This document shows positions 1 through 14,815 of a DNA stretch of 14,815 nt, in pieces (the stretch's first letter is position 1; each line of letters starts with the position of its first letter). The stretch comes from a virus (taxonomy: Duplodnaviria; Heunggongvirae; Uroviricota; Caudoviricetes). The stretch is taken from positions 1-14,815 of IMG/VR virus record IMGVR_UViG_2778261464_000012. One strand, 5' to 3'. The notes beneath the pieces are model-generated. The model saw only the letters and a list, made by a program, of their open reading frames with translations, made no database searches and was not told where the DNA came from. The position numbers were made by a program, and so were the translations under genes.

Positions 1-216
1 TTACCCCATTGCTGCGGTTGCCGCAATACCTACACCACCTGCAAAAGTACCGAAAGCTGCACCAGTAGATGTTAGTAACTCATCTACGTTACCAAATGCA
101 CCACCAGCTTTATTATTGAATTCGGATAAACTATTACCCGCATTTTTCAATGATTGCTTCAAGCCAGATTCATTACCTGTGATTTCAAAAATCATTGATT
201 GTTTTTTATTTGCCAT
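1..216 (-). CDS. Tape measure protein, N-terminal fragment (gene continues beyond window start)
   Basis: ATG at 216..214 directly follows the G/GT chaperone reading frames, the conserved position of the tape measure gene. The translation MANKKQSMIFEITGNESGLKQSLK...AGGAFGN...GAAFGTFAGGVGIAATAAMG is a Gly/Ala-rich N-terminus typical of tape measure proteins. The ORF is open to the window edge. Confidence 0.6.
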   Translation of the reverse strand: MANKKQSMIFEITGNESGLKQSLKNAGNSLSEFNNKAGGAFGNVDELLTSTGAAFGTFAGGVGIAATAAMG

Positions 217-882
217 TTGGCTTTACTCCCATCCATGCGAGCATGTTTGCACGCTGTTGTTTTGCTTGTTCTTCTGCGATCTGCTTCTCCTTCTCTGCTC
301 TTTCTTCTGCCTGTTCTGCACGAGTTTTATTACTAAGCAATCCTAGTGAATCGAATTCTTTAGTACTGAACTTGTGCATATCTTCTTTTCTGATATTTCC
401 AGTACTCAACCATAGAGCTTGCATGATTTCACAATGACGCATTTGATCTACTTGTGCTGAGTTTGGGTCTATAACTGTGTCATAGACGTATATATAAAAG
501 AAAAGCAAAAGGGGCATGGTGTAGAGTTCATCCACACCACACCCCTTATTACGGATTAGTTTTAGAGTTAGTGCAAGAAACGGATCGCTTCTTACTTTTT
601 TTCAATATTATCAATATTTATTGATTCAGAGAAGATACGATCAATCTCTTGGCTTAGTTTCATCTGTACTGATAATTCTACGTTTTCTTCAATCTGTTCT
701 GGTGATTCGAATAGTGGTTTACCTTCGTCATCAACTACACAATGATAGATAATTTTGAATGGTGTAGTACATTGGGAATATTGAGCTAGTGAAGGCATAC
801 GAATTTTCACAACTACATTTGGTGCTAGTTCAAATTCGTGGGTTTTTACTCCAATCACGCTCATTAAATCATTTAGGTTCAT
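206..882 (-). CDS. Tail assembly chaperone G-T fusion product made by programmed -1 ribosomal frameshift
   Basis: The -1 frame is open from 601 down to the TAA at 208..206 and overlaps the last codons of the 96-aa G ORF. A slippery heptamer A_AAA_AAG lies exactly in the overlap. The 109-aa ORF in the track (206..535) is the downstream part of this frame. Position immediately upstream of the tape measure gene matches the conserved G/GT arrangement of tailed phages. Confidence 0.6.
592..882 (-). CDS. Tail assembly chaperone (gpG-like), 96 aa
   Basis: ATG at 882..880 is preceded by AAGGAAG with about a 6-nt spacer. The ORF lies between the major tail protein gene and the tape measure gene and ends inside a slippery site. 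Confidence 0.65.
   Translation of the reverse strand: MNLNDLMSVIGVKTHEFELAPNVVVKIRMPSLAQYSQCTTPFKIIYHCVVDDEGKPLFESPEQIEENVELSVQMKLSQEIDRIFSESINIDNIEKK
595..601 (-). other. -1 frameshift slippery heptamer A_AAA_AAG
   Basis: Plus-strand 595..601 is CTTTTTT, so the minus strand reads AAAAAAG. The zero-frame codons are GAA AAA AAG TAA; after a -1 slip the frame continues AAA AAA GTA AGA AGC... (KKVRSDPFLALTL...) with no stop until 206. Confidence 0.6.
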
Positions 883-919: not shown

Positions 920-1390
920 TTAGTCACCAGCAGTTTCACCGCTTGCAACTGGAGCACCAGTAACTACAAATGTATATTCACGTTGTGCTTGTGAATCAAA
1001 ATCACCAGCAGTAGTGTTAGTAGAGATATAACCGTTAACAACTTGGAAGTAAGAAGCACCATCAGTACCAGTAAGGTTCTCATAGTAAGTTACACGTAGT
1101 TGTACTTTGGTTAGGTTATCTGCATAAGTGTTAAGTAGTTCTTGACCAACTGCACCAGGAATCCAGTTGACAGTTAGAGAAATATCAGGAACGTTTTTAG
1201 AACCAGGTAGTTTCTCTGCATAAAGTTCACCGAAACTATTCACAGTAGCCATATTGGTTTCTGCCCCCGCGACGGCAGGGAAAGCTGCTACCTTCTCAAC
1301 TACAGTAAAGGTTGTTGCAACACCACTAACAGGAGCTAAAGCAATCTCAACTTTGACATTGTTAGCCATAAACATATTTTTAAATGCCAT
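920..1390 (-). CDS. Major tail (tube) protein, 156 aa
   Basis: It sits immediately upstream of the G/GT chaperone genes. ATG at 1390..1388 is preceded by AGGAAAAAAAG. The LTVNWIPG motif and overall pattern resemble lambda gpV-type tube proteins (by recall, not by search). Confidence 0.6.
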   Translation of the reverse strand: MAFKNMFMANNVKVEIALAPVSGVATTFTVVEKVAAFPAVAGAETNMATVNSFGELYAEKLPGSKNVPDISLTVNWIPGAVGQELLNTYADNLTKVQLRVTYYENLTGTDGASYFQVVNGYISTNTTAGDFDSQAQREYTFVVTGAPVASGETAGD

Positions 1391-1412: not shown

Positions 1413-1433
1413 GGGTAACAGATCTTGTTACCC
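1413..1433 (-). other. Intergenic stem-loop between the 952-aa gene and the major tail protein gene
   Basis: Perfect inverted repeat GGGTAACA (1413..1420), 5-nt loop GATCT, TGTTACCC (1426..1433). It lies between the stop of the 952-aa ORF (1444) and the tube gene ATG (1390). No U-tract follows on the minus strand, so it is not a canonical intrinsic terminator. Confidence 0.4.
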
Positions 1434-1443
1434 TTCATTCATC

Positions 1444-4302
1444 TTATTTATGAAGATTGTAGTACTCTATATATAGTCCTAATCCTCTTAGTACTTCCCC
1501 GCTATAAAAGCCAAAGAACATACTATTGTTTTCTGCCGTAGTTGGAGTACCAGAACGTATAGCGGCTGCCCACGTACCATTCATTACATGATTTGACGTG
1601 ATTACCTCATAATAACTTTGTACTTCATCAAACAACATTTGTATTAACTCATCATCTGGATAACCAGCAATTGCCATAGAACAAGCACCTGCTAACCATA
1701 GTCCTGACATATGAGGGGTAAATCCATCATAAATTACTTCACCATTGTTTTTGAAACGTGTTGGTGCATGACCATCATTATTTTTCATAAACCATTTCAA
1801 GTAATTCATCCAGTTTTTACAGTACTGAATTATATTAGAGGGGATTGCATAATCACCACGTGACCATAATTCATATACTACGTTACATCCTGCATAGAAT
1901 GCACGTGGTTCATAACCAGACCAAGCCTCTGAATACCAGTGATCCATAATGAATGTATCTACTTTCTCACCTGCTGGTAAGTACGCTAATGCGTCCTGAC
2001 GGTTCCATACAAACGCCTGAGCACATGGACCTGGTACAGTAGGATGAAATTTATTAGTAAACCCGTCCTGTGAATCACATAAGAACTTGATACTATTATT
2101 TAGTCTTACTGTATCAATAGTAGTTCCTTTAAAACACCATACTGTAGGTAATTGGTAGCCCGGATACGGAAGACCACGCCAGCCAGAATATAACTGTGCA
2201 TATGGATCTGTAATGTTACTGAACGGTATTAGACCGGGAGTATATGCAAGGCTATCTAACATATAGTCTCTGATAGTACAGTTACCAAGACGTGCCGTAT
2301 AACCACTATCAGTACTGTCATTGAATGTTAAATTAACTAGTACAGAATAGTCACCAGTACCGCCATCGTTATATAGTTCTGGTAGATCGTTTATACAGTA
2401 CCAATCTATACGCCCTGAAACGCCGTCTATCGGGTCATCATCTAATAGTAAGGTAAAGTCCTCTAGTTGTGTTAATGTCACTGCTGCGGGCTGCTCATCG
2501 CCTTCTACGTGGTTTGGTTGATAACTGTTTAGTTTAAAATCTAACTGCGTTAAATCTTTAGTTACCCATTCACCACCACTAGCAGGTAACATAGTCCACC
2601 ATCTCCAACCATCTGGATCGGTAACACGTAAGTTAAAGTCATCATTATATGTACGATAGGTGAATGATTTTAAATCTTGTCTCTCATCGTCATAGATATA
2701 GAATCCTACAACCATCCCGCCGTCACCATCCATAGTACTGGTGATTACGTTGTCATAGTACTTACCAGCTATTCCAGATACATACTCAAACCTAGTGACA
2801 GTATTAGAACCATAATCAGAGACATTACGCATATCTGCGGTTAGGTATTCACCACCATCAGGACGTTTAACACGGGTAAAGTGATTCATTGGTACATCCA
2901 TTACCGTAATAGAACCATTTGGGTTAGTATTTGGAATACCGCAACGGTATAGTGTTGAACCCTCTTCTACTTTCGTCTTATTCACTGTCATTTTAACAGC
3001 GAGTCCTAGAGCTACACCAGTAGTATCAACACCGCCACATTCAATATGGAATTTTGAGTTATTATTAAACTTAAACCAAATTGATTGTTGTTCTAGGGTA
3101 GTCTGTGCTGATGCACTTTGATTAATTACAATATAACCTTCGGCATCACGTGAATAAGTTGCAATTCGATCACTTGGGTAGAAATAATCATATGAAATAC
3201 CATCAGTGAATGGCGTTGTTGCAATTGTACTCTTACGGAAGAACATATCAAATCTATCAATATCTGAATAACCATAACAAGTAAGTAGTGAACACTGCCA
3301 CGCTAGATAGTGTTTACGTTCCCCTGTAATATCCCATAGCATTTTAGATGCAAGACAGAACCACAATTCAGCATCTGATGCATTATCAGCGAAATCAAGA
3401 CTACCGTAATTATCAATTGGTACGTTTACCGGGCGGTTGTGCCAACGTTCATTACGTTTAAACATATAACCGCCATGTTCTACGGGGTTACGTGTTGCAT
3501 AGTTGAAACGGTAATTACCATTAATAGAAGTATCTTTAAGCTGTACTGTACCGATCTGGCTTGTTATTCCCTGTTCCAGTACATCACCGTTACTGTCAAC
3601 CTTGCGGCCTGTACGGTCGATAATCCAATCTACATCATAAGTTGGTGCTTTGGTCTTCCAATCAGTTGTACCGTCTTCTAACCACATATATGCAGTTGCG
3701 TTAACTTGGTTCCAACCTAGTGATGCACGTTCTGGAAAGGCGAACCATACAGCGTCCAAGTACTCACCATAGTTTGGAGCACCAGAAGGTATCTTAGTTT
3801 GTCCATTTACCCAATTGAATAACACCCCTTTAAAGCCGCCATGTGTCGGATATTCGGGATCTAGTGGGTAGTTTGCCAGTACTGGAGCCTTACCATTACA
3901 AATCCAATTACAACGTAATGCCGTACTTGGTGGATCTGGAAATGGTACACCACGATAGAATGCTAAATGATATGCATCAAAATATTCTTTTGCTTTCTCT
4001 AGATAGTATGGTTCTTTAGTTGCTTGGTAGCAGTGAATAGCACCTAGTATTTGTAGGGATTGTCCTTCGGTAGTTGCATCACCATCTGGTTGTGCTTCCC
4101 ACTGAGTTTGTGCGATAAAGTGTCTATTGTTTGCAAGTACATTATCTGGATTTAAAACATAGTGCTGAGTTTTATTATCGGTTGTTAGTCCGGTGTTTCT
4201 GGCGAGGAACTTAAATTGCCCCTCTACCATTTGATACGCGTTATCTAAATTGTGTTTTCTAATCATTAGTGTAGATCTGCCATTAGTAAGGAGCCGAACC
4301 AC
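1444..4302 (-). CDS. Large (about 940-952 aa) Trp/Tyr/Cys-rich protein of unknown function; possibly a virion-associated carbohydrate-active enzyme
   Basis: Long uninterrupted ORF in the operon strand. Start is ambiguous: GTG at 4302, or ATG at 4266..4264 overlapping the upstream TAA (TAATG coupling). Composition and motifs (GQSLQILGAIHCYQAT, WYSEAWSGYEPRAFYAGCNVVYELW, GLWLAGACSMAIAGY) look like a globular enzyme rather than a fibre or sheath; this is inference only. Confidence 0.8.
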   Translation of the reverse strand: MVRLLTNGRSTLMIRKHNLDNAYQMVEGQFKFLARNTGLTTDNKTQHYVLNPDNVLANNRHFIAQTQWEAQPDGDATTEGQSLQILGAIHCYQATKEPYYLEKAKEYFDAYHLAFYRGVPFPDPPSTALRCNWICNGKAPVLANYPLDPEYPTHGGFKGVLFNWVNGQTKIPSGAPNYGEYLDAVWFAFPERASLGWNQVNATAYMWLEDGTTDWKTKAPTYDVDWIIDRTGRKVDSNGDVLEQGITSQIGTVQLKDTSINGNYRFNYATRNPVEHGGYMFKRNERWHNRPVNVPIDNYGSLDFADNASDAELWFCLASKMLWDITGERKHYLAWQCSLLTCYGYSDIDRFDMFFRKSTIATTPFTDGISYDYFYPSDRIATYSRDAEGYIVINQSASAQTTLEQQSIWFKFNNNSKFHIECGGVDTTGVALGLAVKMTVNKTKVEEGSTLYRCGIPNTNPNGSITVMDVPMNHFTRVKRPDGGEYLTADMRNVSDYGSNTVTRFEYVSGIAGKYYDNVITSTMDGDGGMVVGFYIYDDERQDLKSFTYRTYNDDFNLRVTDPDGWRWWTMLPASGGEWVTKDLTQLDFKLNSYQPNHVEGDEQPAAVTLTQLEDFTLLLDDDPIDGVSGRIDWYCINDLPELYNDGGTGDYSVLVNLTFNDSTDSGYTARLGNCTIRDYMLDSLAYTPGLIPFSNITDPYAQLYSGWRGLPYPGYQLPTVWCFKGTTIDTVRLNNSIKFLCDSQDGFTNKFHPTVPGPCAQAFVWNRQDALAYLPAGEKVDTFIMDHWYSEAWSGYEPRAFYAGCNVVYELWSRGDYAIPSNIIQYCKNWMNYLKWFMKNNDGHAPTRFKNNGEVIYDGFTPHMSGLWLAGACSMAIAGYPDDELIQMLFDEVQSYYEVITSNHVMNGTWAAAIRSGTPTTAENNSMFFGFYSGEVLRGLGLYIEYYNLHK

Positions 4303-5948
4303 GTACTACCACCATCATAAGAAACAAACTGGAATACATCTGTTGAATCTTTCGTAAATGTCAGTACTGGTACACGCCCATAAGACCATAAAATTGAATC
4401 AGGCCATGATATTTTATTTGCCCCTGTGCCTTGTTTCATAGCTACAGTGAAAGATTGAGTATTCTTACTATTACCACTTGCGTTAACAATGGTAAAATTA
4501 GTTGTTCCTGCTGATAGTGTAACAGTGAATGCAGTCTTACTATCTGATAAATCAATCTCTAGGCTAGTGCCTGTGAGTGTATTTAGTGCTAATAGATCAT
4601 CTACAATTGTTACTTTTGTATCAATATTGGCTTGTAATACCTTGTCTTTATCATCAATTTGTTTCTTTGAATATGTTCCAACATCATCATAGTTCAAAGT
4701 AATATCACTGTTTAGGGCATAGCCATTAATACGGGTGATACGTAGTGCAAATAGATCATTTGATTGGGTACGTGAGTACACATCTGAAATATCTGCGGCT
4801 ACAAGTTGAATGTTAGTACCAGTAAGTGCCTTGTTATTCACTAAGAATGTTTTAGGTACAAAAGTACTGTTACTATAGCTTAGACTTGCCATATCGGTTA
4901 GTTGTGCTGCACCTAGTGTAATATTCCCACTTAATGCCACGCCGTTAATCGTCTGAGTCTTTGCAACAAAGTTAGTATTAGTTTGTGTCTGTGAGTACAC
5001 ATCTAAAATATCTGCCGCAACCAAGTTTAATGAAGTACCAGATAGTGCATGACCATTTAACTGAAATACTTTTGGAACAAATGTATTAGTGATATAAGTT
5101 TGTGAGTACACATCAGAGATATCTGCGGCTACAAGGGTAATATTCCCCGTTAGCTGTTTACCGTTTATTGTCTGTGTTTTTAGTACATAGTTATCTAGGC
5201 TTGCACTGGAGGCTGCACCAAGTTCTGTTAGTGTTGGTTTATCTGCACTTGTATAGACTTTGTACCATGCACCCATAGATGTTCCGTAGTTACGGACGTT
5301 TATAATTGGTGTACCAGTTTTACTAATTACTAATTGAGTACCAAAGTTTGTATCAAGATTATTAATACCTAGAACATCAGTACCAGTTGGTGAAGTAGTA
5401 GATGGAATCTTAATAAATCCGTTACCGTCGCGTTCTTGCCAGCTTGGGAAAGTAGTTCCATTAGAGCCAACGCCATAATCACCACGGTTTAGCGGTACTG
5501 TAGTTTCATCAAGTATACCAGCACTTACTAATGCAGTTGGTGCAAAGGTATATGTTTTAGTTACTACATTATCATAACTACCAGCAGTTGATGTAGATGT
5601 AAGAACACCGTTATACATTGCATATGGAACGGTAGTATCATCTGCACCTTCATCTGGCATTTCAATTTTCATCTGAACTTCTTCACCAGAAGATACTAAA
5701 TCATCTAGAAATTGGTGTACGGATGGAACCCAATTAACGGTGATCGTTACGTCATTATGAGACATATCACCAACTTCTTTAGCCATAAATGTAGAATTAT
5801 ATGGTTCAATTGAAGTAACTTGTGTGGTAGCACCTACTACTGGAAATGAAGCCAGCTTTTCAACTTGTTCAAATGCTTTTGAATTTGGATCGGTATTAAG
5901 TGTGTTAGTATTAATCCACACTGTTGTGTAGTTAGTTAAGAATGACAT
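4266..5948 (-). CDS. Tail protein (560 aa) with tail-tube-like N-terminal domain and tandem fibre-like repeats
   Basis: Residues about 25-145 align with the 156-aa tube protein (EKLASFPVVG / EKVAAFPAVAG; ITVNWVPS / LTVNWIPG; TKTYTFAPTALVS / REYTFVVTGAPVAS). Residues about 255-423 contain four to five repeats of about 36 aa (KTQTINGKQLTGNITLVAADISDVYSQTYITNTFVP and variants). Confidence 0.8.
   Translation of the reverse strand: MSFLTNYTTVWINTNTLNTDPNSKAFEQVEKLASFPVVGATTQVTSIEPYNSTFMAKEVGDMSHNDVTITVNWVPSVHQFLDDLVSSGEEVQMKIEMPDEGADDTTVPYAMYNGVLTSTSTAGSYDNVVTKTYTFAPTALVSAGILDETTVPLNRGDYGVGSNGTTFPSWQERDGNGFIKIPSTTSPTGTDVLGINNLDTNFGTQLVISKTGTPIINVRNYGTSMGAWYKVYTSADKPTLTELGAASSASLDNYVLKTQTINGKQLTGNITLVAADISDVYSQTYITNTFVPKVFQLNGHALSGTSLNLVAADILDVYSQTQTNTNFVAKTQTINGVALSGNITLGAAQLTDMASLSYSNSTFVPKTFLVNNKALTGTNIQLVAADISDVYSRTQSNDLFALRITRINGYALNSDITLNYDDVGTYSKKQIDDKDKVLQANIDTKVTIVDDLLALNTLTGTSLEIDLSDSKTAFTVTLSAGTTNFTIVNASGNSKNTQSFTVAMKQGTGANKISWPDSILWSYGRVPVLTFTKDSTDVFQFVSYDGGSTWFGSLLMADLH
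4680..5186 (-). repeat. Tandem in-frame coding repeats of about 105-110 bp (4-5 copies) inside the 560-aa gene
   Basis: Near-identical DNA blocks are visible, for example GTGAGTACACATCTGAAATATCTGCGGCTACAAG near 4770, GTGAGTACACATCTAAAATATCTGCCGCAACCAAG near 4995, and GTGAGTACACATCAGAGATATCTGCGGCTACAAG near 5105. They correspond to the protein repeats ...LVAADISDVYSQT.... Confidence 0.7.
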
Positions 5949-5950
5949 TA

Positions 5951-6388
5951 TTATTCCCCGTAGCTAAATGTAATTGATTGCGTATGTACATACATTGTTT
6001 TTTGTGCTTCGGCTTGAGTTGTCATTAAACTATCACCAACTAGTACATTATAAATTGGCATCCTTAGTAGTTTGTTTAAATCATCTAAGAATCCCTTAGC
6101 AAAAATTGCCTCTAGAATCTTTTCAATTTCTTCTGAGGCATTTTTAAAGTCTTCGGCAACTGATACGAAATCAATACGAAATTCACAAAGGTTTTGTACT
6201 TCTTGCGGTACTATTTGTGCCGCGATTACTGGCATATTTTGAGGAATCTTATTTCTCATTACTGAACTTTCCCCAATATAAACCATAGCTTTTTTATCTA
6301 CTGATGCTTTCGATGGAAAATGAAGATTCGCTTTAGTACTTAATCTGTTGGTTAGGTACTTTCTGATTGTATAGTCTGCCGTGTACAT
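5951..6388 (-). CDS. Putative head-tail connector / tail completion protein, 145 aa
   Basis: Small ORF packed between the capsid gene and the tail genes, separated from its neighbours by 1-2 nt. Assignment is by position and size only. Confidence 0.45.
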   Translation of the reverse strand: MYTADYTIRKYLTNRLSTKANLHFPSKASVDKKAMVYIGESSVMRNKIPQNMPVIAAQIVPQEVQNLCEFRIDFVSVAEDFKNASEEIEKILEAIFAKGFLDDLNKLLRMPIYNVLVGDSLMTTQAEAQKTMYVHTQSITFSYGE

Positions 6389-6389
6389 A

Positions 6390-6683
6390 TTAGATATCCT
6401 CTAAATTAATCTGTTGAATATAGTGATAATCTGAGATTCCACTCAAATCATCATCTATTCTATTTACTATGTAGGTAGTGCCATTATGTTCAAAAGTAAT
6501 ACCCACTGGTAAACCAGTTTCAGAAGTGAAATAGTTCACGGTAGATTCTGCATCTTCAAAAAAAATCTCGTCTTGCTCGAATATCACTGTAACAGTACTT
6601 GTTACTCCATCCTGAACAATGACGAGATCTTCACCGAAAGAATCTAGTAGTGATCTTTTTTGAGCTTTACTAAATCCTCTCAT
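6390..6683 (-). CDS. Putative head completion / head-tail joining protein, 97 aa
   Basis: Small ORF starting 6 nt after the capsid gene stop, at the typical position of head-tail adaptor genes. Assignment is by position only. Confidence 0.45.
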   Translation of the reverse strand: MRGFSKAQKRSLLDSFGEDLVIVQDGVTSTVTVIFEQDEIFFEDAESTVNYFTSETGLPVGITFEHNGTTYIVNRIDDDLSGISDYHYIQQINLEDI

Positions 6684-6688
6684 ATATA

Positions 6689-13094
<6,406 letters not shown>

Positions 13095-13099
13095 ATGTT

Positions 13100-13303
13100 T
13101 TGTGTACATCTAAAATGTCACATACAATTGAAAGCAATCGGTGCCGAAAACTCGCGTTGATAATCAGGCTGGAGGAGTACCTAAATTATTAGTTTCACTT
13201 AATTAGGTTGATTAAAAGCACTTACATTTCATTTTACTTGATCATTATTACAATGTAACATTGCAAGCACATACACATTGCCGTTCAAGAAGGAATATCC
13301 AAA
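13100..13303. promoter_or_regulatory. Divergent intergenic control region; candidate location of cos and of the DUF3800-gene promoter
   Basis: About 200 bp non-coding stretch between divergently arranged terS and the DUF3800-like gene. It contains three TTGAT(A/T/C)A motifs and a direct repeat ACATTGC...ACATTGC just upstream of the plus-strand RBS. Exact promoter and cos positions cannot be fixed from sequence alone. Confidence 0.3.
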
Positions 13304-14425
13304 TTGGTAAAAAATGTCTACTTCGACGAATCAGGGTTTACAGGTAATAACTTACTTTCAAAAGATCAGCCTTTTTTTAGTTACGCTGCAGTCGTGACTG
13401 ATGAAGAGGAAAGTAAACAGTTTGTAGATTACATAATACAAAAGTACTCGATCGCAGCCGAAGAGCTAAAAGGTAGCACTCTCGTTAATAGCAAGAGATT
13501 ACAACCAGCCGTAGATGAGATACTTAATCATTTCCGTGGACGTATGCGTGTGGTTGTTAACGAAAAGAAATATGCCCTTTCAGGAAAATTCTTTGAATAT
13601 ATTTTCGAGCCAGTATTAGCAGCTAAAAGCTCAATATTTTACAACCTTAAATTCCACCTATTCATATCCAATATAATGTATTTTTCTTTAATAGCTAAGG
13701 ATGAGTATTCTGAACTATTGCATTCTCGATTTGAAGATTTTTCACGAGGTAAAATATTAGTTAATAGTTTTATCGAACCAGTTATTGGTACTAAAAACTC
13801 TGAAATTATGATGGACATTCATGATTTCGCCAAGCATAACATTTCAATAATTGAAGAGGAATATGAAGGTCTCGAGGGCACTGGGGTTGATAAATGGTTG
13901 TTAGATTTGACAACGACTTCTCTTTATAATCTCTTATGCGATATGAGTAGTAAGTTTGGTACATTGAGAGCTATATGTGATAGTTCAAAACCATTAATTA
14001 CCCAACAAGACGCATTCAATGAGATGATAGGTAATGATGAAATTGTGTTCGAGACCTTTAATAATAAAAAAATCCCGATCACATTCAAACTATCTGAGCC
14101 CATAATCCTTTCTGATTCTAAAGTCACGCATGGTATACAAATTGCTGATGTGATAGCTGCAGCCAGCATTTATGTGCTTAATAAGAAAAAATCGAAAGAA
14201 AGATATCACTCCAAATGGCTAACTCATTTCGAAGATGAGATTTTTTATTGGCAATGTTGTGTTGTTCCCACACCTGAAAATCTTGATCCTAAAAATGTAA
14301 ACAATTATTTGAACAGATATATATTGCAAGAAATTGCTGAACGAAGCAGAAAATCACTACCTGTTTTAGATGATATTGAAAAAGAAATCATGCGAATTTC
14401 CAGAACATTAGCCATGGTGCGTTGA
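13304..14425 (+). CDS. DUF3800-like protein (373 aa), function unknown; candidate phage moron / accessory gene
   Basis: The only long plus-strand ORF not antisense to a structural gene. TTG start at 13304 is preceded by AAGAAGGAA at about 9 nt. The N-terminus VKNVYFDESG and the C-terminal SKVTHGIQIADVIAAA match, by recall, the DESG and GxQxAD signature of DUF3800. It looks AT-richer than the structural genes by eye. Confidence 0.75.
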   Translation: MVKNVYFDESGFTGNNLLSKDQPFFSYAAVVTDEEESKQFVDYIIQKYSIAAEELKGSTLVNSKRLQPAVDEILNHFRGRMRVVVNEKKYALSGKFFEYIFEPVLAAKSSIFYNLKFHLFISNIMYFSLIAKDEYSELLHSRFEDFSRGKILVNSFIEPVIGTKNSEIMMDIHDFAKHNISIIEEEYEGLEGTGVDKWLLDLTTTSLYNLLCDMSSKFGTLRAICDSSKPLITQQDAFNEMIGNDEIVFETFNNKKIPITFKLSEPIILSDSKVTHGIQIADVIAAASIYVLNKKKSKERYHSKWLTHFEDEIFYWQCCVVPTPENLDPKNVNNYLNRYILQEIAERSRKSLPVLDDIEKEIMRISRTLAMVR

Positions 14426-14430
14426 AGTAT

Positions 14431-14473
14431 ATATCCTCATGCTATGTTATTAGCACCAGTAGCATGAGGATAT
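14431..14473 (+). terminator. Inverted repeat downstream of the DUF3800-like gene (possible terminator or protein-binding dyad)
   Basis: ATATCCTCATGCT (14431..14443) and AGCATGAGGATAT (14461..14473) form a perfect 13-bp stem with a 17-nt loop, starting 6 nt after the stop codon. A T-run (TTATTTTT) lies about 14 nt downstream, so it is not a textbook intrinsic terminator. Confidence 0.3.
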
Positions 14474-14815
14474 CATATGTAATTCAATTATTTTTACCAT
14501 GACCAATATATTTAATCAATTAATGATTTGACCTCAATAATTGTTTAGCTATATTAATACATTCTTGAATCCTTTCCTCGCGTATTAGACACGTAGTACT
14601 GCCATTGTCCATCTGGTAGATTGGATTATAGATGCGACCGCAATCACTCTGGAACTGAGGCCGGTAATACTTCACTCCGTTACGTGTAGTTGCCACTTCA
14701 GTACATCCCCAGCAATGAGCCGACAGCCGTGTATTTCTATCTGCGGCTGGATTTCCACTCCGAGCAACTGCCCATTAAGAGTCGTAATCGGTACAGCCCA
14801 GTACTGGATGTTCAT

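What the first reader, a model, noticed from the sequence alone, without database searches (positions are those of the whole stretch)
4266..5948. Tail-tube paralogue fused to fibre-like repeats, in addition to a canonical 156-aa tube gene at 920..1390
The first about 145 residues of the 560-aa protein align with the 156-aa major tail protein encoded about 3 kb downstream, sharing EK(L/V)A(S/A)FP, TVNW(V/I)P and YTF...VS motifs. That indicates an intra-genome duplication of the tube domain. The paralogue then carries four to five 36-aa repeats and a C-terminal domain. It could form a decorated ring on the tail or neck, or fibre-bearing tube subunits. Two tube-domain genes of such different size separated by a 952-aa gene is an unusual architecture.
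Basis: seen in the sequence. Interest (0 to 1): 0.55.

Follow-up and report, generated by a model that had tools for sequence, protein, structure and literature searches.

The report
Side fibre anchored by tube-protein copy
A prophage tail-fibre protein starts with a diverged copy of the phage's own tail-tube protein, which suggests a so far undescribed way of fixing fibres to a non-contractile tail; this layout is conserved across a whole lineage of prophages of enteric bacteria.

Summary
Residues 26-144 of the 560-aa protein align with the 156-aa tube protein at 30% identity (E=6e-14, z=19.6 against shuffles). Pfam's lambda tube model hits it above threshold. An AlphaFold model of residues 10-148 matches lambda gpV best.

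The duplication is old, not recent. About 90 protein clusters (50% identity) of 600-1560 aa carry this domain at the N-terminus and form a clade apart from the short tubes. Of 47 scanned, 32 end in the Peptidase_S74 trimeric-fibre chaperone.

In about 80 related loci the fusion gene sits between the tail-terminator gene and a canonical ~150-aa tube gene, usually directly next to the tube gene.

In this window the usual distal part is replaced. The protein ends in a phi92 gp140-like domain (45% identity). An overlapping 940/952-aa gene follows, a gp141-like "glycosidase" fibre protein (55% identity) that is a conserved gene pair in phi92/rV5-like myophages.

My reading, which is inferred: this is the proximal subunit of a side fibre whose anchor co-assembles as a ring in the tube stack. 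No cultured or structurally solved member was found. Ring position and copy number are untested.

The parts
5505..5948 (-). Tube-like N-terminal domain of the 560-aa protein (aa 1-148), a paralogue of the 156-aa tube protein
   Evidence: BLASTP E=6e-14. Shuffle z=19.6. Pfam PF16461 at 26.7 bits, above the 26.1 cut-off. PHROG 158. AlphaFold2 plus Foldseek: lambda gpV, TMt 0.68-0.69.
5187..5504 (-). Conserved segment after the tube domain (aa 149-254). It contains the family motif GDYGVGSNG (aa 156-164, nt 5457-5483). Together with the tube domain it forms the conserved anchor module.
   Evidence: Alignments A1 and A3: G156, G159 and G161 are invariant or nearly so, and G175, N176 and G212 are invariant. 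Mean pairwise identity across 67 family members is 0.50 for aa 149-254, peaks at 0.60 for aa 161-180, and falls beyond about aa 240. AlphaFold2 confidence is low here.
4620..5186 (-). Fibre shaft: five 36-37-aa repeats (aa 255-443) with the motif xT(I/V)NGxxL(T/S)GN(I/L)xLxAAD(I/L)
   Evidence: PHROG 23008 'tail fiber protein' covers aa 250-434. tblastn hits annotated tail-fibre proteins of Vibrio phages pTD1, VP4B and phiKT1028 over aa 250-454.
4269..4619 (-). C-terminal domain (aa 444-560), homologous to the small phi92 gp140-type protein; proposed docking domain for the next protein
   Evidence: 45% identity over 108 aa to JohannJBalmer bas62_0024, E=2e-30. PHROG 9017 at 1e-29 and PHROG 7760. 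More than 500 myophage records carry the homologue.
1444..4266 (-). 940-aa protein (952 aa if the GTG at 4302 is used), a homologue of phi92 gp141 / bas62_0025 'lateral tail fiber protein with several glycosidase domains'. Its start overlaps the 560-aa stop (TAATG).
   Evidence: tblastn: 55% identity over 100% of the length in 521 records. PHROG 2871 at 1229 bits. Same gene order and overlap in the myophages. Overlap sequence shown. The E. coli homologue is annotated as 940 aa. gp141 is listed as a glycosidase in PMC5380687.
920..1390 (-). Canonical tail-tube protein (156 aa), followed by the G and T chaperone ORFs
   Evidence: PHROG 158 at 6.5e-16. Falls in the short-tube clade. A ~150-aa orthologue is present downstream of the fusion in nearly every related locus.
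5951..6388 (-). Tail terminator (145 aa, gpU-like). Its stop lies 2 nt before the 560-aa start.
   Evidence: AlphaFold2 pLDDT 84.9. Foldseek PDB matches: T5 p142 terminator, lambda gpU, R4C and T1 terminators, and the SaPI1 neck. Junction sequence.
1413..1433 (-). Stem-loop between the fibre module and the tube gene (GGGTAACA-AGATC-TGTTACCC). It lies upstream of the tube Shine-Dalgarno site.
   Evidence: A stem-loop at the same place in 87% of 60 distinct family loci (z below -2), with differing stem sequences.
592..882 (-). Tail assembly chaperone G-like ORF (96 aa), with the T-like ORF at 206..535. These mark the 156-aa gene as the canonical tube gene.
   Evidence: Pfam Phage_TAC_13 at 4.8e-4, below the curated cut-off. 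Both ORFs are conserved downstream of the tube gene in all related loci.

Best explanation
The 560-aa protein is the virion-proximal subunit of a side tail fibre, and its attachment domain is a diverged copy of the phage's own tail-tube protein.

Shown here:
- Residues 1-148 have tube sequence and predicted tube fold.
- Residues 1 to about 235 form a conserved N-terminal module shared by a large family of long proteins. The variable C-terminal parts of those proteins carry hallmarks of trimeric receptor-binding fibres.
- The gene always lies between the tail-terminator gene and the canonical tube gene of lambda-like prophages of Enterobacterales.

Inferred:
- Six copies of the tube-like domain form a ring that stacks in register with the ordinary tube rings. 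Most likely this is a single specialised ring at one end of the tube, possibly recruited by the same G/GT-tape-measure pathway as the ordinary tube protein.
- The chain leaves the ring on the outer surface, as the Ig domain of lambda gpV does.
- Chains associate three by three into fibres, giving two fibres per ring.

In this window the ancestral distal part (shaft, tip and S74 chaperone) has been replaced. The protein has five 36-aa shaft repeats and a phi92 gp140-like end domain. I infer that this end domain holds the gp141-like 940-aa glycan-binding or glycan-degrading protein, whose start overlaps the 560-aa stop (an arrangement that suggests translational coupling). On this reading the module extends or changes host recognition in addition to the central gpJ-like tip fibre seen in a related complete prophage (L003).

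My estimates for position, given co-assembly into the tube: next to the distal tail protein about 45%, next to the terminator about 30%, interspersed along the tube about 25%.
For: Paralogy and fold.

Family-wide N-terminal module: a search with aa 1-160 found 128 hits, of which 93 are 600-1563 aa with the domain at residues about 1-160.

Separate clade from short tubes.

Fibre hallmarks in relatives: Peptidase_S74 in 32 of 47, Collar domain in 7, Phage_tail_C_2 in 6, and Gp34_trimer, gp37_trimer and BppL_N in single cases.

Conserved anchor and variable remainder: mean pairwise identity is 0.42 for the tube domain, 0.50 for aa 149-254 and 0.29 beyond.

Synteny TerL - W - portal - protease/MCP - FII-like - terminator - fusion - tube - G - T holds in about 80 loci and in complete E. 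coli prophages that also have a full tip complex (tape measure, DUF2163, DUF6950, 1178-aa tip fibre).

The upstream 145-aa protein is a gpU-type terminator.

Divergence of the tube-like domain tracks divergence of the tube protein across loci (Spearman 0.79).

Distal module: C-domain 45% identical to the gp140 homologue. The 940/952-aa protein is 55% identical to the gp141 homologue. The two show the same adjacency and stop/start overlap in myophages and here. The organism breakdowns of matching records are nearly the same (516 and 531 records).

Topology: in lambda gpV the C-terminal Ig domain lies on the outer tube surface (PMC12617516).
Against: - No virion data exist for any member.
- The only 'phage' record with the gene (DCP80) looks like a chimeric assembly.
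- No PDB sequence relative was found.
- AlphaFold2 gave low confidence beyond residue 150, so the oligomeric state is unknown.
- A six-fold ring carrying obligate trimers needs a 6-to-2x3 arrangement that has not been demonstrated.
- The 560-aa protein itself has no S74 domain, so its trimeric state is inferred from relatives and from its repeats.
- Ribosome-binding sites of the fusion and tube genes are equally good, so expression signals do not argue for low copy number.
- Gene position next to the tube gene may simply record a tandem duplication, so it says little about position in the virion.
Confidence: 0.62

Rival explanations
1. Interspersed decoration. The fusion co-polymerises at random with the 156-aa protein along the whole tube, giving fibres along the tail. 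This would resemble SPP1 gp17.1* or the lactococcal 936-type tube extension, with dosage set by a second gene instead of by a frameshift.
For: Same fold as the tube protein, and alignment over the whole tube core. Shine-Dalgarno quality is as good as for the tube gene. Decorated tube subunits are known (PMC6669499 and PMC12617516, seen).
Against: The domain is only 30% identical to its own tube protein, and family-wide it forms a separate clade that evolves faster (0.42 against 0.58 mean identity). Known interspersed decorations keep an identical tube domain because they come from the same gene. Long S74-type trimeric fibres of 700-1500 aa on many rings would be bulky, and the chains would have to find trimer partners at random positions.
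Confidence: 0.15
2. Not part of the tube stack. The tube-like domain is an adaptor or assembly tag that binds another tail part from outside, or acts like an extra distal-tail-protein ring. Possible partners are the distal tail protein, the terminator or neck, or the G/GT chaperone.
For: Tube-like folds are reused as adaptors: distal tail proteins (lambda gpM has the gpV-N fold, PMC12617516; the JBD30 distal tail protein has two such domains and wraps the fibres, PMC11445458), terminators and hub proteins. The conserved extra segment aa 149-235 could be the true binding element.
Against: The best structural matches are tube proteins proper, not distal tail proteins or terminators. The gene does not sit among the tip genes. 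The relatives' prophages already encode a complete tip set and a terminator.
Confidence: 0.15
3. Chance similarity, a pseudogene, or a decaying prophage remnant with no function.
For: Some relatives lie in degraded prophages with split genes.
Against: z=19.6 against shuffles. Intact full-length ORFs in hundreds of genomes across Enterobacter, Klebsiella, Cronobacter, Escherichia, Pantoea and others. Conserved synteny in about 80 loci.
Confidence: 0.02
4. The roles are reversed. The 560-aa protein family is the main tube subunit and the ~150-aa protein is a minor or specialised one.
For: Both have the tube fold. The 156-aa protein scores below Pfam's cut-off, whereas the 560-aa protein passes.
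Against: The ~150-aa gene directly precedes the G/T chaperone and tape-measure genes, clusters with the short tubes, and is the more conserved of the two. The variable C-termini and S74 chaperones of the long proteins are typical of receptor-binding fibres, not of a structural polymer.
Confidence: 0.03

Closest known systems
Lambda gpV and other decorated tube proteins (T5 pb6, SPP1 gp17.1*, lactococcal 936-type tube extensions)
   Same: A tube-fold N-domain with an appendage that leaves from its C-terminus onto the outer tail surface. Lambda gpV is the best structural match.
   Different: In those phages the appendage is a small Ig, FN3 or carbohydrate-binding domain on the one and only tube gene (or its frameshift product), present on all or many rings. 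Here a separate, diverged paralogue carries a whole receptor-binding fibre, and an undecorated tube gene is kept next to it.
Ur-lambda side tail fibre Stf, and the T5 p132/pb1 and DT57C LtfC collars
   Same: Trimeric side fibres added to a lambda-like or siphophage tail alongside a central tip fibre, with a conserved N-terminal anchor and an exchangeable distal part.
   Different: The Stf N-termini (12 copies) form a collar around the outside of the gpV/gpM junction using a six-stranded sheet plus a helix (PMC12617516). Here the anchor is itself a tube-fold domain, and the gene lies between the terminator and tube genes, not after the tip genes.
Distal tail proteins (Dit, lambda gpM, 'evolved' Dits, JBD30 gp49)
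   Same: Tube-fold rings at a unique axial position that serve as a platform for receptor-binding proteins. This is the closest functional analogy to a single specialised ring.
   Different: Dit genes follow the tape-measure gene, and a separate candidate (184 aa) occupies that position in the related complete prophage L003. The best fold matches here are tube proteins, not Dits.
phi92 gp140-gp141 (rV5 / phi92 / Justusliebigvirus lateral fibre pair)
   Same: The C-terminal 108 aa are 45% identical to the gp140 homologue, and the next protein is 55% identical to the gp141 homologue. Gene order and stop/start overlap are the same.
   Different: In the myophages gp140 is a free 158-aa protein in the baseplate gene cluster. 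Here the domain is fused to the end of a fibre shaft on a siphophage. The positions of gp140 and gp141 in the phi92 virion are themselves unresolved (PMC13450770).
Extended Hcp proteins of type VI secretion (Hcp with C-terminal effector domains); comparison from my own knowledge, not tested here
   Same: A paralogue of the tube subunit carries a C-terminal functional extension, alongside a canonical tube subunit.
   Different: That system is a secretion system, and the extension is a toxin cargo, not a receptor-binding fibre.

Membership tests
Siphophage tail tube protein, lambda gpV type (Pfam PF16461 Phage_TTP_12) | Sequence match to the family model at or above the curated cut-off | tested here: met
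   The 560-aa protein scores 26.7 bits against a cut-off of 26.1, over aa 47-136. PHROG 158 at 1.8e-16. The 156-aa protein scores 19.2 bits (below cut-off), with PHROG 158 at 6.5e-16.
Siphophage tail tube protein, lambda gpV type | Tube fold (beta-sandwich with long hairpin and flanking helix) | tested here: met
   AlphaFold2 residues 10-148: block-mean pLDDT 52-92, mostly 75-92. Foldseek PDB: lambda gpV and YDC107 tube, TMt 0.68-0.69, rmsd 3.6 A over about 150 columns.
Siphophage tail tube protein, lambda gpV type | Gene lies directly upstream of the G/GT chaperone and tape-measure genes and is the sole tube gene | tested here: not met
   That position is held by the 156-aa gene. The 560-aa gene lies upstream of it, after the terminator gene.
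Siphophage tail tube protein, lambda gpV type | Polymerises as stacked hexamers that form the tail tube | not testable with these tools
   Only monomer prediction was available. This needs cryo-EM or multimer modelling.
Trimeric receptor-binding tail fibre | Conserved N-terminal virion anchor with an exchangeable distal part among relatives | tested here: met
   Identity is 0.42-0.50 over aa 1-254 and falls beyond about aa 240. Relatives' lengths range from 600 to 1563 aa.
Trimeric receptor-binding tail fibre | Fibre shaft repeats or known fibre domains | tested here: met
   Five 36-aa repeats. PHROG 23008 and Vibrio phage tail-fibre hits over aa 250-454. Relatives carry Collar, Gp34_trimer, gp37_trimer and Phage_tail_C_2 domains.
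Trimeric receptor-binding tail fibre | C-terminal intramolecular chaperone (Peptidase_S74) or a separate fibre chaperone | tested here: not met
   Absent from the 560-aa protein, but present in 32 of 47 relatives. In this window the distal end is a gp140-like domain instead.
Trimeric receptor-binding tail fibre | Trimeric assembly | not testable with these tools
   The monomer AlphaFold2 model has low confidence beyond residue 150.
Distal tail protein (Dit / gpM) | Gene directly after the tape-measure gene, with closest fold match to Dit N-domains | tested here: not met
   The gene lies upstream of the tube gene. In the relative L003 a separate 184-aa gene follows the tape-measure gene. The top fold matches are tube proteins.
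phi92 gp140-gp141 lateral fibre pair | gp140-like domain directly followed by a gp141 homologue with overlapping stop and start | tested here: met
   The organism breakdowns of records matching the two proteins are nearly the same.
Recoding-extended tube protein (SPP1 gp17.1* type) | The extension is made from the tube gene itself by a frameshift or readthrough | tested here: not met
   Two separate genes about 3 kb apart with only 30% identity. By eye I saw no slippery X XXY YYZ heptamer in the 560/952 overlap sequence.

The most novel reading that the evidence does not exclude
A tail-tube paralogue forms one dedicated, fibre-bearing layer of the non-contractile tail tube itself. This would be an in-line anchoring ring that needs no collar or baseplate. 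It would convert six-fold tube symmetry into two trimeric fibres per ring. It would also act as a plug-in socket into which whole receptor-binding modules are swapped, including modules taken from myophage baseplates (phi92 gp140/gp141). That would be a previously undescribed principle of fibre attachment in siphophages, present in many Klebsiella, Enterobacter, Cronobacter and E. coli prophages.
Probability: 0.4. Interest if true: 0.7.

Novelty: new variant of a known kind. Interest (0 to 1): 0.55.

Why it matters
How side fibres are fixed to flexible tails is known for only a few phages: the lambda Stf collar, the T5 collar, and Dit-based baseplates. A fibre whose anchor is a copy of the tube subunit would add a new attachment solution. 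It would also be a clear case of a structural polymer subunit duplicated and repurposed as a docking module.

The family is common in prophages of clinically important Enterobacterales. Its variable distal parts are likely host-range determinants. The window also shows a myophage baseplate fibre pair transplanted onto a siphophage anchor, which is useful knowledge for engineering receptor-binding modules.

The question can be tested directly by inducing one of the many lysogens and imaging the tails.

Tried and rejected
- PDB sequence searches with the 560-aa, 952-aa and 156-aa proteins, and with the family profile, found no meaningful hit.
- NCBIfam gave nothing for six window proteins.
- Megablast of the window against phages and plasmids gave no match.
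- tblastn of a typical family N-domain against 50,697 phage records found only the DCP80 record and a weak Vibrio phage tube hit.
- AlphaFold2 of the full 560-aa protein gave low confidence beyond residue 150, so nothing could be concluded about the shaft or the end domain.
I redid it with database homologues.
The second found only four loci.
- Comparing ribosome-binding sites and gene spacing as a proxy for stoichiometry was uninformative: both genes have good Shine-Dalgarno sites.
- I looked for a frameshift that would fuse the 560-aa and 952-aa ORFs and saw no slippery site in the overlap sequence.
- Literature searches for a described tube-fibre fusion or second tube paralogue found nothing relevant. 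One search was swamped by the medical term 'TTP'. Schwarzer et al. 2012 on phi92 was not held.
- Rfam found nothing in the window.
- I considered and dropped using correlated divergence with the terminator versus the distal tail protein to place the ring, because genetic linkage confounds it.
Full report
**Context.** All structural genes of the window lie on the minus strand, in lambda-like order:
- small terminase (12478..13059)
- gpA-type large terminase (10650..12563)
- a W-like head-tail joining protein (10097..10675)
- lambda-family portal (8571..10112)
- a fused S78 protease / HK97-fold capsid protein (6689..8668)
- an FII-like 97-aa protein (6390..6683)
- a 145-aa protein (5951..6388)
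- the 560-aa protein of the finding (4266..5948)
- a 952-aa ORF (1444..4302)
- the 156-aa tube protein (920..1390)
- G- and T-like chaperone ORFs (592..882 and 206..535)

The 145-aa protein gives a confident AlphaFold2 model (pLDDT 84.9). Its best PDB matches are tail terminators: T5 p142, lambda gpU, and the R4C and T1 terminators. The 560-aa gene therefore sits between the terminator gene and the tube gene.

**Checking the observation.** A Smith-Waterman score of 154 compares with 34 +/- 6 for 1000 shuffles, z=19.6. Pfam's lambda tube family PF16461 hits the 560-aa protein just above its curated cut-off and the 156-aa protein below it. PHROG 158 ('major tail protein') hits both at about 1e-16. 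An AlphaFold2 model built on 33 sequences is mostly confident for residues 10-148 (block-mean pLDDT 52-92, mostly 75-92). Its top PDB matches are the tube proteins of YDC107 and lambda (TMt 0.68-0.69), followed by other siphophage tubes, Hcp proteins and related folds. There are five 36-37-aa repeats (aa 255-443) with a 73-aa super-period, followed by a C-terminal domain.

**The fusion is a conserved family, not a local oddity.** An exhaustive HMMER search with residues 1-160 found 128 proteins. Of these, 93 are 600-1563 aa long and carry the domain at their extreme N-terminus. Only about 15 are short tubes of 145-165 aa. In a neighbour-joining tree the long proteins form one large clade. The window's 156-aa protein falls in a separate clade with the other short tubes. 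The duplication therefore predates the diversification of this lineage.

Among 47 long members scanned with Pfam (one search covers a smaller overlapping set):
- 32 end in the Peptidase_S74 intramolecular chaperone typical of trimeric fibres and spikes
- 7 have the phage tail Collar domain
- 6 have Phage_tail_C_2
- single members have Gp34_trimer, gp37_trimer or BppL_N

The conserved part extends beyond the tube domain. A motif GDYGVGSNG..PQY follows it, and residues 161-200 are the most conserved segment of all. Conservation collapses after about residue 240. This pattern, a conserved N-terminal module with an exchangeable distal part, is the usual signature of a receptor-binding fibre with a virion anchor.

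**Synteny.** In 80 IMG/VR loci and 4 genome loci fetched with the family alignment, my ORF and HMM analysis finds the same gene order: TerL - W - portal - protease/capsid - FII-like - ~130-aa gene - fusion - ~150-aa tube - G - T.
- Nearly every locus with enough flank has both tube-domain genes.
- The median gap from fusion to tube is 58 nt.
- The median gap from the upstream ~130-aa gene to the fusion is 10 nt.

Only the window's near relatives (L004-L006) have the 952-aa gene in between. A few other sub-lineages have a 415-aa or 472-aa fusion followed by other fibre-type genes.

A complete ~36-kb prophage in E. coli ybhA (L003) shows that the element also encodes a full lambda/GTA-like tip: tape measure, a 184-aa protein, DUF2163, DUF6950 and a 1178-aa tip fibre. 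The fusion is therefore additional to the central tip fibre. Named hosts are all Enterobacterales: Enterobacter, Klebsiella, Cronobacter, Escherichia, Raoultella, Pantoea, Duffyella, Serratia, Buttiauxella and Pluralibacter.

**The distal half in this window.** Residues 450-557 are 45% identical (E=2e-30) to bas62_0024 of phage JohannJBalmer. That is a 157-aa protein in the baseplate gene cluster of phi92-like phages. From gene order and the phi92 literature I take it to be the phi92 gp140 homologue and the next gene, bas62_0025, to be the gp141 homologue.

The 952-aa ORF is 55% identical over its full length to bas62_0025, annotated as a 'lateral tail fiber protein with several glycosidase domains'. 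gp141 is listed as a glycosidase in a review table citing Schwarzer et al. 2012 (PMC5380687).

The two homologues occur in records with nearly the same organism breakdown (516 and 531 records). In the myophage and here, the second gene starts at the stop of the first: TAATG at 4266, giving a 940-aa product, as annotated in E. coli. I conclude that a two-part fibre module was exchanged between myophage baseplates and this siphophage anchor, and I infer that the C-terminal domain docks the 940-aa protein. The recent phi92 cryo-EM study lists gp140 among putative fibre proteins but could not place it in the map (PMC13450770).

**How it most likely works.**

Shown:
- a tube-fold domain
- a conserved anchor module
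- fibre-type distal parts
- a fixed gene position
- a complete set of other tail parts in relatives

Inferred:
- The tube-like domain assembles as a hexameric ring in register with the tube.
- The chain leaves on the outside, as the gpV Ig domain does in lambda (PMC12617516).
- Chains bundle into trimers, two per ring.

Two points favour a specialised ring over random co-polymerisation. First, the domain is only 30% identical to its own tube protein and evolves faster than it does. Second, known interspersed decorations keep an identical tube domain.

Which end of the tube carries the ring cannot be decided from sequence. The position next to the distal tail protein fits both assembly logic (tube paralogues act as initiators at the tip end in other tails) and function (fibres near the cell surface, as with the Ur-lambda Stf collar at the gpV/gpM junction). 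The gene's position next to the terminator gene hints at the neck end, but it may only record a tandem duplication. I estimate 45% for the distal end, 30% for the neck end and 25% for interspersed, given co-assembly.

**Comparison with known systems and novelty.** The closest analogues are:
- decorated tube proteins (lambda gpV, SPP1 gp17.1*, T5 pb6)
- fibre collars (Ur-lambda Stf, T5 p132/pb1)
- distal tail proteins as tube-fold platforms
- the phi92 gp140-gp141 pair

None of these combines a separate tube paralogue with a complete receptor-binding fibre.

I found no solved structure and no bona fide cultured phage. The one GenBank record, DCP80, joins this module to T4-like genes including two inverted rIIA copies, and looks chimeric. 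I also found no paper describing the arrangement in the searchable library. That library is incomplete, so prior description cannot be excluded.

I rate the finding a new variant of a known kind, with interest 0.55.

**Side observation.** A stem-loop lies between the fibre module and the tube gene (1413-1433 in the window). It recurs in 87% of 60 distinct family loci. The stems differ widely in sequence while staying paired, and the loop usually contains GGA. The tube Shine-Dalgarno site is AAGGA in most family loci and AGGA in the window. This looks like a regulatory RNA element, for example a CsrA-type site, a standby ribosome site or a stabiliser. I did not pursue it further.

Noticed in passing
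window 1413-1433 (minus strand), and the same position upstream of the tube gene in loci L004-L087: A conserved stem-loop lies between the fibre module and the tube gene. In 60 distinct loci the -60..-11 region folds with median z=-3.7, and 87% have z below -2. Stem sequences differ widely but stay paired, which suggests compensatory change. The loop nearly always contains GGA (AGGAC, TGGAT, AGGAA), and the tube Shine-Dalgarno site is usually AAGGA (AGGA in the window). This resembles a CsrA/RsmA-type two-site arrangement, a standby ribosome site or an mRNA stabiliser. In the window itself the loop is AGATC, without GGA. There is no Rfam match.
   Followed up: partly
window 509-547 (minus strand): A 17-bp G+C-rich hairpin followed by a T-run lies between the G-like (592..882) and T-like (206..535) chaperone ORFs. 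It is either a terminator-like signal inside the tail operon or a structure linked to the expected G/GT frameshift.
   Followed up: no
L001 / L089 (GenBank PQ671644.1, Escherichia phage DCP80, 1-46 kb): The record is classified as Straboviridae (Gaprivervirus). Its first ~26 kb is a lambda-like siphophage structural module of this family, with a 699-aa tube-fibre fusion and a 164-aa tube protein. T4-like genes follow (motA, ndd, and two rIIA copies in opposite orientation). It is probably a chimeric assembly.
   Followed up: partly
window 11021-14815: Only this part (3' part of the terminase gene, small terminase, DUF3800 gene) is 99.9% identical to the E. coli G3/10 chromosome. The rest of the window has no near match there. 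This implies a recombination breakpoint inside the large terminase gene, that is, mosaicism between related prophages.
   Followed up: no
window 13304-14425 (+): A DUF3800 gene on the opposite strand lies next to the small terminase gene. In the related E. coli prophages L003 and L088 the same slot holds an 'ATP-dependent nuclease'. The slot looks like a variable accessory or defence-gene position.
   Followed up: no
whole window: G+C is 33-40%, which is lower than I would expect for the Enterobacteriaceae in which the element is found (the host figure is from my own knowledge; hosts). Many Logan and IMG/VR contigs carrying the gene are 30-37 kb, about the size of the whole element.
   Followed up: no
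window 6689-8668 (minus strand): The prohead protease (Peptidase_S78, aa 76-170) and the HK97-fold capsid protein (aa 396-656) are encoded as one 659-aa ORF with an acidic linker. The ORF overlaps the 3' end of the portal gene by about 100 nt.
   Followed up: no
L088 (E. coli SI-NP020 prophage) and L011-L014, L040: In other sub-lineages the tube-domain protein is short (415-472 aa). Separate genes annotated 'pyocin knob domain' and 'tail fiber domain' follow it before the tube gene. The split, multi-subunit version of the fibre has therefore arisen more than once.
   Followed up: no
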